DNA of 64,000 nucleotides, from assembly GCA_037917685.1 (NCBI GenBank), contig JAVCBU010000006.1, forward strand, positions 1 through 64,000. Reading direction: 5' to 3'. The translations under genes were made by a program, and so were the position numbers. The notes below the pieces were generated by a model. That model did not search any database. It had not been told where the DNA came from and saw only the letters and a program-made list of their open reading frames with translations. This DNA comes from Thermoproteota archaeon. Lineage in GTDB: Archaea; Korarchaeota; Korarchaeia; Korarchaeales; JAOZGB01. Of the stretch, positions 1 through 29,035 are shown piece after piece. The stretch's first letter is position 1; each line of letters begins with the position of its first letter.

Positions 1-1091
<1,091 letters not shown>

Positions 1092-1325: not shown

Positions 1326-1428
1326 GGGCCCGTGGCGCAACCAGGGAGCGCGACGGCTTTGCAATCATAGACTGAAAAGCCGTAGGTTGCGGGTTCAAAT
1401 CCCGCCGTGCCTAAGCGCGGAAGGTCCA
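1326..1428 (+). tRNA. tRNA-Ala(TGC) with two introns: 37/38 (1364-1377) and acceptor stem 67/68 (1408-1422)
   Basis: Cloverleaf; splicing both introns gives acceptor GGGCCCG/CGGGTCC+A73 with G3:U70; both introns form BHB-type motifs. Confidence 0.9.
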
Positions 1429-1576
1429 CTCCCCCATATTTCCATTTCTGTGAGGGCTAACTATCCTTATCCTTAGATCTATGTTGAACGTTCTCTTTCT
1501 ATGGCTGATAGCAGCTTATGATATAGTATATAGCATAGAAATAGTTGTCTTAAGGGTATAAGAGAAAGAGTAAAAG

Positions 1577-1688
1577 GGCCGGGAGCGGGATTTGAACCCG
1601 CCTCGAGGGCTTTCCGCCGGGCGGCCACAGGCTTCTGGCTTTGTCCCCAGGCTAACCAGGCTACCCCGTCGGGCTTTGTATCCCGGCC
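1577..1688 (-). tRNA. tRNA-His(GTG) with encoded G-1 and three introns: 8/9 (1668-1679), 29/30 (1633-1644), 37/38 (1612-1624)
   Basis: Acceptor GCCGGGA/TCCCGGC+C73; after splicing, D-stem GGGT/GCCT, anticodon stem GGGGC/GCCCT and loop CT-GTG-GA; each intron forms a BHB. Confidence 0.88.
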
Positions 1689-1706
1689 GCCCTCCCGGCA
1701 TGGTAG

Positions 1707-1779
1707 TGCGGTGGCCGGGATTTGAACCCGGGTCTGGGGCGTGGCAGGCCCCCATCCTACCAGGCTAGACTACCACCGC
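1707..1779 (-). tRNA. tRNA-Gly(GCC), no intron
   Basis: GCGGTGG...CT-GCC-AC...TTCAAAT...CCACCGC-A cloverleaf. Confidence 0.96.
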
Positions 1780-1784
1780 TTTAG

Positions 1785-1856
1785 TGGGCCGGGAGGGATT
1801 TGAACCCTCGACCTCCGCCTCGTCAGGACGGCGTCATACCGCTAGACTACCGGCCC
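1785..1856 (-). tRNA. tRNA-Val(GAC), no intron
   Basis: GGGCCGG...CT-GAC-GA...CCGGCCC-A cloverleaf. Confidence 0.95.
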
Positions 1857-1867
1857 CTTGTTCTAAG

Positions 1868-1955
1868 TGGACCGGGAGGGATTTGAACCCTCGACCTTCG
1901 CGATTTTGTATGTTATATGCCAACGCGACGCGCTCCCAGGCTGCGCTACCGGCCC
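1868..1955 (-). tRNA. tRNA-Ala(GGC) with 14-nt 37/38 intron (1904-1917)
   Basis: Acceptor GGGCCGG/CCGGTCC with G3:U70; TCGCG-TT-GGC-A[intron]T-CGCGA. Confidence 0.93.
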
Positions 1956-1979
1956 ACTTATAATATCTTCATAATTCAT

Positions 1980-2177
1980 TTATCTATTTTTCCCTATTCT
2001 TCTCCTTGTATGGGTTGACTTGTTTTGCCACTTGTATCTTCTCCACTTGGACGTTTTCCCATATCCGCATGAGGCGCAAATCTTTTTCCTAACGTGGAAT
2101 GATCTTCTTCCACACCTTCTACATACTATGTGTGTTTTTCCTTTGGATTTCTTCCCCATGGATGGAGTTCCCTTCAA
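1980..2177 (-). CDS. rpl37e: 50S ribosomal protein eL37
   Basis: KGTPSMGK...[26 protein letters not shown]; TTG start after SD AGGTGAGG. Confidence 0.95.
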
Positions 2178-10264: not shown

Positions 10265-10350
10265 TGCGGCCGGCGGGATTCGAACCCGCGACCTCTGGCT
10301 ATCCCCAGGAGTCGGGGGGCCAGAATCCTACCAGACTAGACCACGGCCGC
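10265..10350 (-). tRNA. tRNA-Gly(CCC) with 12-nt 37/38 intron (10301-10312); C33
   Basis: GCGGCCG acceptor; CTGGC-CC-CCC-G[ACTCCTGGGGAT]A-GCCAG. Confidence 0.88.
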
Positions 10351-18632: not shown

Positions 18633-18730
18633 TGCGGCCGCCGGGATTTGAACCCGGGTCTCCGGCTTTCTTCTATACATCGGAAGGCCGGTATCCTATC
18701 TGTCTCAAATCCAGGCTAGACTACGGCCGC
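18633..18730 (-). tRNA. tRNA-Gly(TCC) with a D-loop intron (~18698-18708) and a 13-nt 37/38 intron (18668-18680)
   Basis: GCGGCCG acceptor; CCGGC-CT-TCC-G[ATGTATAGAAGAA]A-GCCGG; the exact D-loop junction is ambiguous. Confidence 0.9.
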
Positions 18731-18734
18731 ATTA

Positions 18735-18819
18735 TGCGGGGGGCGGGATTTGAACCCGCGAACCCCTTAGGGACAAGGTCCTGAGCCTTGCGCCTTTGAC
18801 CAGGCTTGGCTACCCCCGC
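18735..18819 (-). tRNA. tRNA-Leu(CAG), no intron
   Basis: GCGGGGG acceptor, CT-CAG-GA loop, long variable arm. Confidence 0.96.
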
Positions 18820-18825
18820 TATAAG

Positions 18826-18912
18826 TGCTCCGGGCGGGATTTGAACCCGCGTTAGCGGCTCGAAAGGCCGCTGTGCTTTAGGCCTTAGTTGACCTGGCTA
18901 CACTACCGGAGC
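18826..18912 (-). tRNA. tRNA-Glu(TTC) with 12-nt D-loop intron at 20b/21 (18878-18889)
   Basis: GCTCCGG acceptor, CT-TTC-GA loop; BHB AGGT[CA^A]C-TAA-G GCCT[AA^A]. Confidence 0.92.
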
Positions 18913-28903: not shown

Positions 28904-29035
28904 TGGGCCCGGCGGGACTCGAACCCGCGGCCTCCGGCTTTCCTAAGGCTGAGTGACTGACCGCCATATAAGGCATGCGCGCCTGGCTCGGCGCTCCTAC
29001 TGGGTTTAGGTCAGTCCAGGCTGAGCTACGGGCCC
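28904..29035 (-). tRNA. tRNA-Ile(TAT) with three introns: 20a/21 (28998-29013), 29/30 (28975-28988), 37/38 (28940-28966)
   Basis: GGGCCCG/CGGGCCC+A73; after splicing CCGGC-CT-TAT-AA-GCCGG; BHB-type motif at each intron. Confidence 0.88.

What the first reader, a model, noticed from the sequence alone, without database searches (positions are those of the whole stretch)
1577..1688. Triple-intron tRNA-His with an intron at 8/9
Seen: three BHB motifs, namely 8/9 CGGG[AT^A]C-AAA-G CCCG[AC^G], 29/30 CTGG[GG^A]C-AAA-G CCAG[AA^G] and 37/38 CTGT[GG^C]C-GCCC-G GCGG[AA^A]. Removing all three gives a normal His cloverleaf with encoded G-1, C73 and U8; it also has an unusual G15:G48. The 8/9 BHB uses acceptor nt 3-6, so it cannot coexist with the acceptor stem. 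Established: triple-intron tRNAs are known mainly from Thermoproteales. Inference: 8/9 is a very rare or unreported site.
Basis: partly seen in the sequence, partly recalled or inferred. Interest (0 to 1): 0.85.

Follow-up and report, generated by a model that had tools for sequence, protein, structure and literature searches.

The report
Triple-intron histidine tRNA gene
This is a real histidine tRNA gene of an uncultured archaeon, broken by three tiny introns, one at an unusual spot right after the acceptor stem; it is a nice new example of a known phenomenon, not a new kind of system.

Summary
Observation confirmed. On the minus strand, 1688..1577 encodes tRNA-His(GUG) interrupted by three mini-introns: 1679..1668 (12 nt, 8/9), 1644..1633 (12 nt, 29/30) and 1624..1612 (13 nt, 37/38). 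Removing them gives a clean 75-nt His cloverleaf. None of 27 tRNA-His genes from the same small phylum has an insertion at 8/9 or 29/30, and 16 of them also follow tRNA-Gly. It is the only tRNA-His found in the 95%-complete genome. A sister strain keeps all three introns; its only changes in the gene lie in intron loop or bulge bases.

Each intron has a 4-bp central helix with the cut sites two bases into 3-nt flanks. Flanking helices are almost absent, a relaxed bulge-helix-loop type shared by many other 10-17-nt introns here. The genome encodes a fused two-unit EndA with the crenarchaeal loop lysine, plus RtcB.

New points: introns 1 and 2 are 10/12 identical with a compensatory change. The 18-nt leader carries an exact copy of acceptor bases 1-7, which in folding frees the real strand for the 8/9 motif; this is suggestive, not proven. 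Whether 8/9 is unreported could not be settled, and no RNA data were available.

The parts
1577..1688 (-). tRNA-His(GUG) gene, G-1 (1688) to C73 (1577), 112 nt with three introns; 75 nt after their removal
1680..1688 (-). exon 1: G-1, G1-A7, U8
   Evidence: A7 and T66 differ together from G7 and C66 of the relatives
1668..1679 (-). intron 1, 12 nt, between U8 and G9; its CCCG pairs with acceptor C3-G6
   Evidence: last base is T instead of C in the sister strain
1645..1667 (-). exon 2: G9 to G29 (D arm and start of the anticodon stem)
1633..1644 (-). intron 2, 12 nt, at 29/30; its CCAG pairs with C24-G27; 10/12 identical to intron 1
   Evidence: loop bases vary between strains (1641, 1642)
1625..1632 (-). 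exon 3: G30 to G37, with anticodon GUG
1612..1624 (-). intron 3, 13 nt, canonical 37/38; its GCGG pairs with C32-U35; the anticodon stem serves as outer helix
1577..1611 (-). exon 4: A38 to C73 (4-nt variable loop with G48, T arm, acceptor 3' strand)
1689..1706 (-). 18-nt spacer between tRNA-Gly and G-1, i.e. the 5' leader of pre-tRNA-His
1693..1699 (-). exact copy of acceptor 5' strand bases 1-7 (GCCGGGA) inside the leader, 12 nt upstream of the real one. Proposed stand-in partner for the acceptor 3' strand; alternatively the ancestral 5' end, with 1692..1681 as a fourth 12-nt intron
1707..1779 (-). tRNA-Gly(GCC), directly upstream; the Gly-His order is shared with relatives
1571..1575 (-). 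T-run (TTTTA) one base after C73, a likely end of the tRNA cluster transcript (inference)

Best explanation
The locus is the cell's functional tRNA-His(GUG) gene, last in a minus-strand cluster tRNA-Ala(GGC)-Val(GAC)-Gly(GCC)-His. Its transcript carries three mini-introns (12, 12 and 13 nt) at 8/9, 29/30 and 37/38. Each intron pairs four of its bases with the four exon bases that end two bases before the 5' cut. Both cut sites then lie two bases into 3-nt unpaired stretches on either side of a 4-bp helix. This is a minimal bulge-helix-bulge, in practice bulge-helix-loop, because the inner helix is at most 1 bp. The genome's single fused two-unit EndA, whose catalytic unit carries the crenarchaeal-type loop and its lysine, would cut, and RtcB would join. 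Shown: the sequences, the insertion points relative to orthologues, the motifs and the enzyme genes. Inferred: that cutting and joining occur. Introns 1 and 2 are copies of one element. Intron 1 was adapted to its new site by one compensatory change (intron base 9 is C opposite G4; in intron 2 it is A opposite U25). Because the 8/9 helix needs acceptor bases 3-6, I propose that intron 1 is removed while the 5' leader is still attached. The leader's exact copy of acceptor bases 1-7 pairs with the acceptor 3' strand and frees the real strand. After ligation the real strand takes over (it adds the G-1:C73 pair) and RNase P removes the leader. This last part is a hypothesis resting on folding alone; I give it about 0.3. 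The confidence of 0.8 is for the core claim, a functional three-intron tRNA-His spliced at these junctions.
For: Spliced product is a regular tRNA-His; the unspliced gene is invisible to ARAGORN and Rfam. Top solution of an exhaustive BHB and cloverleaf search. 0 of 27 tRNA-His genes of relatives have an insert at 8/9 or 29/30: 22 are intronless, 3 have only a 37/38 intron, 2 have a T-loop intron. 16 of the 27 follow a tRNA-Gly as here. It is the only GUG gene among 40 models, 44 ARAGORN calls and a blastn-short search of the 95%-complete genome. Contigs from 4 runs of 4 studies and one JGI contig carry a sister strain with all three introns. Its 3 differences inside the 112-nt gene all fall in the 37 intron bases, at loop or bulge places. 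A7:T66 is a compensatory pair against G7:C66 in relatives. Most interrupted models in this genome carry 10-17-nt introns; I checked the architecture by hand only for the Asn 37/38 and Leu(CAA) 30/31 introns. EndA: one 371-aa frame, two N+C domain units; the C unit matches A. pernix alpha at 2.9e-36, with K226 aligned to the lysine of VEKPRG. RtcB is present. Intron 1 vs 2: 10/12 identical; the CAAAG loop with a 4/4 helix occurs 86 times in the genome, and only these two are in a tRNA. Leader: an exact 7/7 copy of the acceptor strand in 1 of 40 models, next best 5/7. With the leader the helix-1 fold is -61.8 against -58.2 kcal/mol for the acceptor fold at 37 C, and -47.3 if the leader may not pair. 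P(helix 1) is 0.84/0.35/0.07/0.03 at 37/55/70/80 C with the leader and about 0.0002 without.
Against: There is no RNA evidence: no RNA run holds the locus, so splicing, cut sites and order of events are unobserved. Introns 1 and 2 lack an outer helix (at most 1 bp), so they are more relaxed than the hBH and HBh' motifs for which cleavage is described in the passages I read. The genome is 95% complete, so a second tRNA-His cannot be excluded. The same-genus genome G001 (66% complete) yielded no tRNA-His for comparison. The leader idea has weak statistics: shuffled leaders reach the native value in 16 of 400 (37 C) and 9 of 400 (70 C) for ddG, and in 9-16 of 200 for P(helix 1). It was noticed post hoc, rests on one gene, and the predicted P(helix 1) is low at the temperatures a vent organism may live at. 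The minimum-energy folds also pair leader GGGCGGCC with G36-G37 plus intron 3 bases 1-6, which would hide the intron 3 motif.
Confidence: 0.8

Rival explanations
1. Four intervening sequences rather than three. The ancestral 5' end is the upstream copy (1699..1693), and 1692..1681 (GGGCGGCCGGGA, 12 nt) is a further mini-intron at 7/8. It would be removed after intron 1, leaving U at -1, and the Thg1-like enzyme would add G-1.
For: A formal motif exists: CCGG[GA^G]GGCGG CCGG[GA^T], 4/4 Watson-Crick, and it is the only other such register in the region. The length equals that of introns 1 and 2. The spacer up to the upstream copy is 7 nt, close to the 8-12 nt in g2 relatives, whose -1 base is often T or A. 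Because CCGG is its own complement, a BHB requirement alone explains 4 of the 7 repeated bases. A Thg1-like gene is present.
Against: It would leave a 1-nt exon (U8) between two introns and would need a strict order of splicing. Its helix needs both copies free of the acceptor 3' strand. G is encoded at -1 of the downstream copy, and RNase P alone gives the right product. A diverged tandem duplication of bases 1-12 (10/12 identical) explains the repeat equally well.
Confidence: 0.08
2. A decaying or unprocessed gene copy: the working tRNA-His lies in the unassembled 5% of the genome, or is made another way.
For: No expression data. Genome 95% complete in 22 contigs. Very relaxed motifs for introns 1 and 2.
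Against: All exon bases fit a regular cloverleaf, with a compensatory A7:T66 pair. The position after tRNA-Gly is that of the orthologues. The sister strain changed only intron loop or bulge bases. No other GUG gene or fragment was found. About two thirds of this genome's tRNA models carry introns.
Confidence: 0.06
3. The first intron is cut in another register (any of three that remove 12 nt starting 1-3 bases earlier), giving C8 instead of U8.
For: MAFFT places the gap in that register. The flanks GAT and GAC make the registers nearly equivalent.
Against: Only the 8/9 register has a 4/4 helix with both sites two bases into the flanks. T8 is shared by all relatives aligned or listed. U8 is a near-universal tRNA base (established knowledge).
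Confidence: 0.03
4. Assembly artefact or chimera of a metagenome bin.
For: The genome is a multi-contig assembly with 3.2% estimated contamination.
Against: The same 250-nt stretch with 4-5 differences is present in Logan contigs of 4 runs from 4 studies and in a 47.7-kb JGI contig.
Confidence: 0.01

Closest known systems
Multi-intron tRNA genes of Thermoproteales, e.g. Pyrobaculum islandicum tRNA-Pro(UGG) with introns at 25/26, 37/38 and 56/57, and P. calidifontis tRNA-Glu(UUC) (passages of PMC4090602 and PMC4390854)
   Same: Three introns in one tRNA gene, one canonical and two non-canonical; short introns whose central helix is built from exon plus intron; an EndA with the crenarchaeal loop.
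   Different: A different lineage: a small phylum with a fused single-chain EndA, not separate alpha and beta subunits. A different isoacceptor and a different position (8/9). Introns of only 12-13 nt with almost no flanking helices.
Intron at 3/4 in certain Thermoproteales tRNAs, called an 'extreme case' (Yoshihisa 2014, citing Sugahara 2008; passage)
   Same: An intron whose splicing motif must use acceptor-stem bases and so competes with the acceptor helix.
   Different: Here the intron sits after U8, in the two-base connector between acceptor and D stems. I could not see how the 3/4 cases fold or whether they have a leader copy (the source paper is not held).
Korarchaeum cryptofilum: fused alpha2-type EndA with the Crenarchaeota/Thaumarchaeota-specific loop, and tRNAs with non-canonical and multiple introns (Fujishima 2011, PMC3239211; passages)
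   Same: The same enzyme architecture: two tandem units in one chain, the catalytic unit nearest to (alpha-beta)2 alpha subunits, the loop with lysine present. It is paired with many non-canonical introns.
   Different: Identity of this organism with Korarchaeota is inferred, not shown; record titles of relatives say only 'Thermoproteota' or 'Crenarchaeota archaeon'. No activity is known for this enzyme.
Transposed intron families of Thermoproteales (Fujishima 2010, as summarised in PMC4090602 and PMC3239211)
   Same: Near-identical intron sequences at different positions, each fitted to the local exon through the central helix.
   Different: Here the two copies lie in one and the same gene, and no third copy was found in the genome.
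[quoted passage not shown]
   Same: Many intervening sequences per gene, often in the D arm, missed by standard annotators, and sitting at BHB-competent boundaries.
   Different: A different phylum. Their median intron length is 22-23 nt; here the modal length is 12 nt.

Membership tests
tRNA-His(GUG) | Regular cloverleaf with anticodon GUG after removal of intervening sequences | tested here: met
   ARAGORN on the in-script spliced 75 nt gives tRNA-His(gtg): 7-bp acceptor, 4-bp D stem, 5-bp anticodon and T stems; my threader gives the same.
tRNA-His(GUG) | His identity set: extra G-1 opposite C73 | tested here: met
   G at 1688 and C at 1577. Note that relatives often have T or A at -1 and a Thg1-like gene is present, so an encoded G-1 is not required in this lineage.
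tRNA-His(GUG) | Orthology with tRNA-His genes of relatives (sequence and gene order) | tested here: met
   Exons align to 27 tRNA-His genes of the phylum; 16 of the 27 follow tRNA-Gly as here.
Archaeal EndA-spliced (BHB) tRNA introns | 4-bp central helix with both cut sites two bases into 3-nt unpaired stretches on opposite strands | tested here: met
   All three introns: 4/4 pairs in the correct register.
Archaeal EndA-spliced (BHB) tRNA introns | Flanking helices h and h' of the strict hBHBh' motif | tested here: not met
   The inner helix is a single C-G pair in all three. The outer helix is the anticodon stem for intron 3 but at most 1 bp for introns 1 and 2 (read). They are relaxed, loop-type motifs.
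Archaeal EndA-spliced (BHB) tRNA introns | Genome encodes a splicing endonuclease of a broad-specificity type, and an RtcB ligase | tested here: met
   A 371-aa two-unit EndA with the loop lysine; RtcB at 1.7e-172. Broad specificity itself is inferred from the loop.
Archaeal EndA-spliced (BHB) tRNA introns | Introns are actually excised and exons joined | not testable with these tools
   No RNA run holds the locus.
Thermoproteales multi-intron tRNAs | Organism belongs to the order Thermoproteales, with a heterotetrameric (alpha-beta)2 EndA | tested here: not met
   EndA is one fused frame here and in 38 of 40 relatives. The phylum as held has only 43 species representatives. The name of the lineage is not shown.
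Transposed intron family | Near-identical introns at different positions | tested here: met
   Introns 1 and 2 are 10/12 identical, with the full loop CAAAG shared and one compensatory difference.
Transposed intron family | Copies spread over different tRNA genes | tested here: not met
   Of 86 genome sites with a CAAAG loop and a 4/4 helix, only these two are in a tRNA.

The most novel reading that the evidence does not exclude
The 5' leader of this pre-tRNA carries a built-in stand-in for the acceptor 5' strand. By holding the acceptor 3' strand it lets the real strand fold with intron 1 into the splicing motif. An intron can then live at a site (8/9) that would otherwise be locked away by the acceptor helix, and splicing of that intron must precede RNase P. 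This would be a cis-acting folding device for tRNA splicing; I found it described in none of the passages I read.
Probability: 0.25. Interest if true: 0.7.

Novelty: new member of a known kind. Interest (0 to 1): 0.42.

Why it matters
It adds a well-supported triple-intron tRNA outside Thermoproteales. The lineage's splicing enzyme is the fused 'korarchaeal' form, and the gene shows that 12-nt introns with almost no flanking helices are tolerated even where the motif must unzip the acceptor stem.

The two near-identical introns inside one gene, differing by a compensatory base, are a compact snapshot of intron copying constrained by the splicing helix.

The leader copy gives a concrete, cheap experiment on how a competing tRNA helix is overcome and on the order of splicing and 5' maturation.

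Practically, standard tRNA finders miss this gene, so the genome would be annotated as lacking tRNA-His.

Tried and rejected
RNA evidence: no RNA holder was listed for window 1400-2100. The four runs I laid are DNA contigs only, so nothing can be said about expression or splicing.

Literature on position 8/9: '8/9' is not an allowed search term. The phrases 'positions 8 and 9' and '8 and 9' together with intron terms gave only unrelated papers. Sugahara 2007, 2008 and 2009, Fujishima 2010, and Marck and Grosjean 2003 are not held. Figures are not held and supplements are closed, including tRNAscan-SE 2.0 Table S7 and the Asgard census tables, which may list such positions. So 'unreported' is neither shown nor refuted.

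Same-genus genome G001 (66% complete): three tRNA-like hits and a GCCTGTGG pattern hit were inspected, and none is a tRNA-His.

The CAAAG-loop scan for more copies of introns 1 and 2 found none in a tRNA.

My genome-wide intron catalogue is rough. Several D-arm and class II solutions are mis-threaded. The '7/8' call at C6:340730 is a D-loop intron by comparison with tRNA-Pro(UGG). C4:10898 looks like a false positive. C6:1955 is tRNA-Ala(GGC) with a 37/38 intron. I use the catalogue only for approximate counts and for 'no other 8/9'.

A blast hit at C1:431390 that resembled the tRNA-His 5' part is an intron-containing initiator tRNA.

An alternative hairpin between intron 1 GCCC and D-stem GGGU appears in the 85 C fold. 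I rejected it as a splicing motif because it does not place both cut sites in BHB geometry.

Naming the organism: record titles of relatives say only 'Thermoproteota' or 'Crenarchaeota archaeon'.

The sigma-70 promoter and terminator scan does not apply to archaea, and I did not use it.

My first index for the intron 3 helix was wrong (H3 row), and I ignored it.

Full report
WHAT IS THERE

The feature is on the minus strand. Read from 1688 down to 1577, the sequence has seven parts:
- G-1 plus acceptor GCCGGGA and U8;
- a 12-nt insert ACAAAGCCCGAC (1679..1668);
- G9 to G29;
- a 12-nt insert ACAAAGCCAGAA (1644..1633);
- G30 to G37, with anticodon GUG;
- a 13-nt insert CCGCCCGGCGGAA (1624..1612);
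- A38 to C73.

Standard finders do not see the gene. ARAGORN lists 8 genes in the window and none here. The Rfam tRNA model gives 7 tRNA hits in the window, 4 in 1100-2300 even at E up to 10, and 36 in the genome; none is here.

When the three inserts are cut out inside a script, the 75-nt product is called tRNA-His(gtg) by ARAGORN with a regular cloverleaf. An exhaustive search of my own enumerated 61 BHB-like candidates in the gene, removed all combinations of up to three, and scored each product on a cloverleaf template. It ranks exactly these three first (25.0 against 21.0).

IS IT MORE THAN CHANCE, AND IS THE JUNCTION RIGHT?

The strongest evidence does not use the splicing motif. I recovered 27 tRNA-His genes from 27 other genomes of the same phylum:
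- 22 are uninterrupted;
- 3 (genus g5) have only a 14-15-nt intron at 37/38;
- 2 (genus g7) have a 14-nt insert in the T loop;
- 0 of 27 have anything at 8/9 or 29/30.

Sixteen of the 27 lie just downstream of a tRNA-Gly (8-12 nt in g2, about 30 nt in g6), as here, where Gly(GCC) is at 1779..1707.

The alignment shows three insertion blocks in the window's gene and its sister strain. MAFFT puts the first gap three bases to the left, which would give C8. Registers -1 to -3 all give the same C8 product. Only the 8/9 register restores the T8 seen in every relative and has a 4/4 helix.

Position 7 is A and position 66 is T here, against G and C in the relatives. This is a compensatory pair that fixes A7 as part of the mature acceptor stem.

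IS IT THE ONLY tRNA-His?

No other GUG gene appears among:
- the 44 ARAGORN calls made with intron search on;
- the 40 gene models of my T-arm-seeded solver;
- the blastn-short hits of 12 distinct tRNA-His sequences of relatives against the genome.

The one extra 5'-like hit is an initiator tRNA with introns. The assembly is 95% complete, so absence elsewhere is likely but not proven.

CONSERVATION

Logan contigs of four runs from four studies cover 1573-1822 with 4-5 differences, and a 47.7-kb JGI contig (L037) carries the same variant.

Inside the 112-nt gene the differences are 1641, 1642 (in two of the four runs) and 1668. These are two loop bases of intron 2 and the last, bulged base of intron 1. 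None lies in the 75 exon bases. If placed at random, three changes would all fall in the 37 intron bases with probability about 0.04 (my arithmetic). These strains are too close to give covariation.

THE MOTIFS

Each intron has the same plan:
- four exon bases;
- two more exon bases and the first intron base, unpaired, with the 5' cut after the second;
- a 5-6-nt inner stretch;
- four intron bases complementary to the four exon bases;
- two intron bases and the next exon base, unpaired, with the 3' cut after the second.

The inner 'helix' is a single C-G pair, so the 5' site effectively lies in an 8-9-nt hairpin loop. For intron 3 the anticodon stem gives the outer helix. For introns 1 and 2 there is at most one outer pair.

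This is the relaxed, bulge-helix-loop end of the spectrum. It seems to be the house style of this genome. Roughly 26 of about 39 credible tRNA models are interrupted, mostly by 10-17-nt introns. Positions include 30/31 (six in the rough catalogue), 29/30, 25/26, 22/23 and 45/46. The catalogue is rough and some D-arm calls are mis-threaded. I checked the architecture by hand only for the Asn 37/38 and Leu(CAA) 30/31 introns. No other model has an intron at 8/9.

THE ENZYMES

The genome has one EndA gene, just outside the window (C6:68800-69912). It is a single 371-aa frame with two N-terminal plus C-terminal domain units.

The second unit is closest to the catalytic alpha subunits of Aeropyrum pernix, Sulfolobus tokodaii and Pyrobaculum aerophilum (2.9e-36 to 6e-29). 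It aligns almost without gaps through the crenarchaeal loop, with K226 opposite the lysine of VEKPRG. Hirata's review describes that lysine as needed for cutting relaxed motifs (passages).

The same fused frame is found in 38 of 40 relatives. Fujishima 2011 describe just such an enzyme in Korarchaeum cryptofilum, together with non-canonical and multiple introns. They argue it keeps broad specificity (passages). Kaneta 2018 note Korarchaeota as the TACK exception to the (alpha-beta)2 type (passage).

The phylum as held has only 43 species representatives. I therefore think the organism is a korarchaeote or close to one. This is inference: record titles say only 'Thermoproteota' or 'Crenarchaeota archaeon'.

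RtcB and a Thg1-like protein are also encoded.

ORIGIN OF THE INTRONS

Introns 1 and 2 are identical at 10 of 12 places, including the whole unconstrained loop. Of the two differences, base 9 (C or A) matches the exon partner (G4 or U25).

A CAAAG loop with a 4/4 helix occurs 86 times in the genome, and only these two lie in a tRNA. The loop of intron 2 drifts between strains (AAA, ACA, GCA), so the identity looks recent.

I read this as one intron copied within the gene to a site offering the same C-N-G-G-N-N context, then fitted by one change. This is the Thermoproteales 'transposition' picture in miniature (passages).

Relatives show that the 8/9 and 29/30 introns are gains of this lineage. 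Intron 3 may be shared with g5 or independent.

THE ACCEPTOR CONFLICT AND THE LEADER

In ViennaRNA ensembles of the gene without a leader, that helix has probability about 0.0002 and the acceptor stem 0.93-0.96.

The 18-nt spacer after tRNA-Gly reads CUACCAU-GCCGGGA-GGGC. It holds an exact copy of acceptor bases 1-7, 12 nt upstream of the real ones. Only 1 of 40 tRNA models in the genome has such a 7/7 copy within 30 nt upstream; the next best is 5/7.

The folding results with the leader are these:

| Measure | Value |
|---|---|
| Helix-1 fold, leader copy holding the acceptor 3' strand (37 C) | -61.8 kcal/mol |
| Acceptor fold (37 C) | -58.2 kcal/mol |
| Helix-1 fold with the leader forbidden to pair (37 C) | -47.3 kcal/mol |
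| P(helix 1) at 37 / 55 / 70 / 80 C with the leader | 0.84 / 0.35 / 0.07 / 0.03 |

The controls are only moderate. Shuffled leaders do as well in 16 of 400 and 9 of 400 trials for the energy difference, and in 9-16 of 200 for the probability. The idea was formed after seeing the data, it rests on one gene, and the folds also pair leader GGGCGGCC with the start of intron 3.

I therefore offer it as a testable hypothesis at about 0.25-0.3: intron 1 is cut out before RNase P acts, with the leader copy as a temporary partner of the 3' strand.

A RIVAL READING OF THE SAME REPEAT

The 12 nt at 1692..1681 form a fourth formal motif, CCGG[GA^G]GGCGG CCGG[GA^T], if the gene is taken to start at 1699. 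Three things favour this:
- the spacer to that start (7 nt) resembles the 8-12 nt of g2 relatives;
- many relatives have T or A at -1;
- a Thg1-like enzyme could add G-1.

Against it: it leaves a one-base exon and needs both copies unpaired. The repeat is equally well explained as a diverged tandem duplication of bases 1-12 (10/12). I give it under 0.1.

HOW NEW IS IT?

The passages I read say the following:
- Multi-intron tRNAs with up to three introns at 'seemingly random' positions are well known.
- A 3/4 intron is cited as an extreme case.
- Asgard genes average 2.2 intervening sequences (abstract).

So the kind is known.

On the 8/9 position itself, an 8-30-nt insert at this place in a tRNA-His of this sequence type occurs in 0 other GTDB species representatives (the window's own genome or one very near it may be left out of that scan, and the search is limited to this sequence signature). 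It occurs in one metagenome contig, the sister strain. By contrast, 25 of the 42 other genomes of the phylum carry the uninterrupted signature.

I could not see the published position catalogues. From memory I do not recall 8/9 in them, but that is recall, not a check.

G15:G48 is unusual. From memory, E. coli tRNA-Cys has it. Every relative's sequence printed has C48.

VERDICT

It is a new member of a known kind and of moderate interest. Two features lift it above routine: the paired introns with a compensatory change, and the acceptor-strand copy in the leader.

Noticed in passing
window 28904-29035 (-): A second candidate triple-intron tRNA, with anticodon UAU (Ile) and introns near 20a/21, 29/30 and 37/38 (16, 14 and 27 nt) in my solver. 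ARAGORN miscalls it as Leu with a 52-nt intron, and the Rfam gathering scan of the window misses it.
   Followed up: partly
window 18633-18912 (-) and 10265-10350 (-): A cluster Glu(UUC)-Leu(CAG)-Gly(UCC) with mini-introns in the D loop and at 37/38, and Gly(CCC) with a 12-nt 37/38 intron. Roughly two thirds of the genome's tRNA models carry introns, mostly 10-17 nt (rough catalogue).
   Followed up: partly
genome contig C6:68800-69912 (+), about 5 kb beyond the window's end: The only EndA gene is a fused two-unit protein of 371 aa, with the crenarchaeal-type loop and its lysine. The fused frame is shared by 38 of 40 relatives. It matches the published description of the Korarchaeum enzyme.
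   Followed up: yes
genome contig C1:377667-378026 (-): A Thg1-like (tRNA-His guanylyltransferase family) gene in a 268-aa frame. Many relatives have T or A instead of G at -1 of tRNA-His, so G-1 is probably added after transcription in part of this phylum.
   Followed up: partly
genome contig C1:431393-431270 (-): An initiator tRNA-Met gene with inserts in the anticodon stem region and a roughly 40-nt insert in the T loop.
   Followed up: no
L018:1490-1577 and L022:1490-1577 (genus g7): The tRNA-His of this sister family has a 14-nt insert in the T loop and no other intron. Genus g5 has only a 37/38 intron. So tRNA-His gained different introns in different branches of the phylum.
   Followed up: partly
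L008 and L017 (genus g4), about 17 nt upstream of tRNA-His: The leader holds GGCCGGGAGCC, a near copy of the acceptor 5' strand, although these genes have no intron. Three other g4 loci lack it. This weakens any claim that such copies exist only where an intron needs them.
   Followed up: no
window 1-1091 (-), 1326-1413 (+) and 1868-1955 (-): A partial 16S rRNA gene at the contig start. tRNA-Ala(UGC) and tRNA-Ala(GGC) each carry a 37/38 intron, and ARAGORN labels them ???/Cys and Met/Ala.
   Followed up: partly
window 1597 (-), tRNA position 48: G48 opposite G15 instead of the usual C48. Every relative's tRNA-His sequence printed has C48, and the sister strain also has G48.
   Followed up: partly
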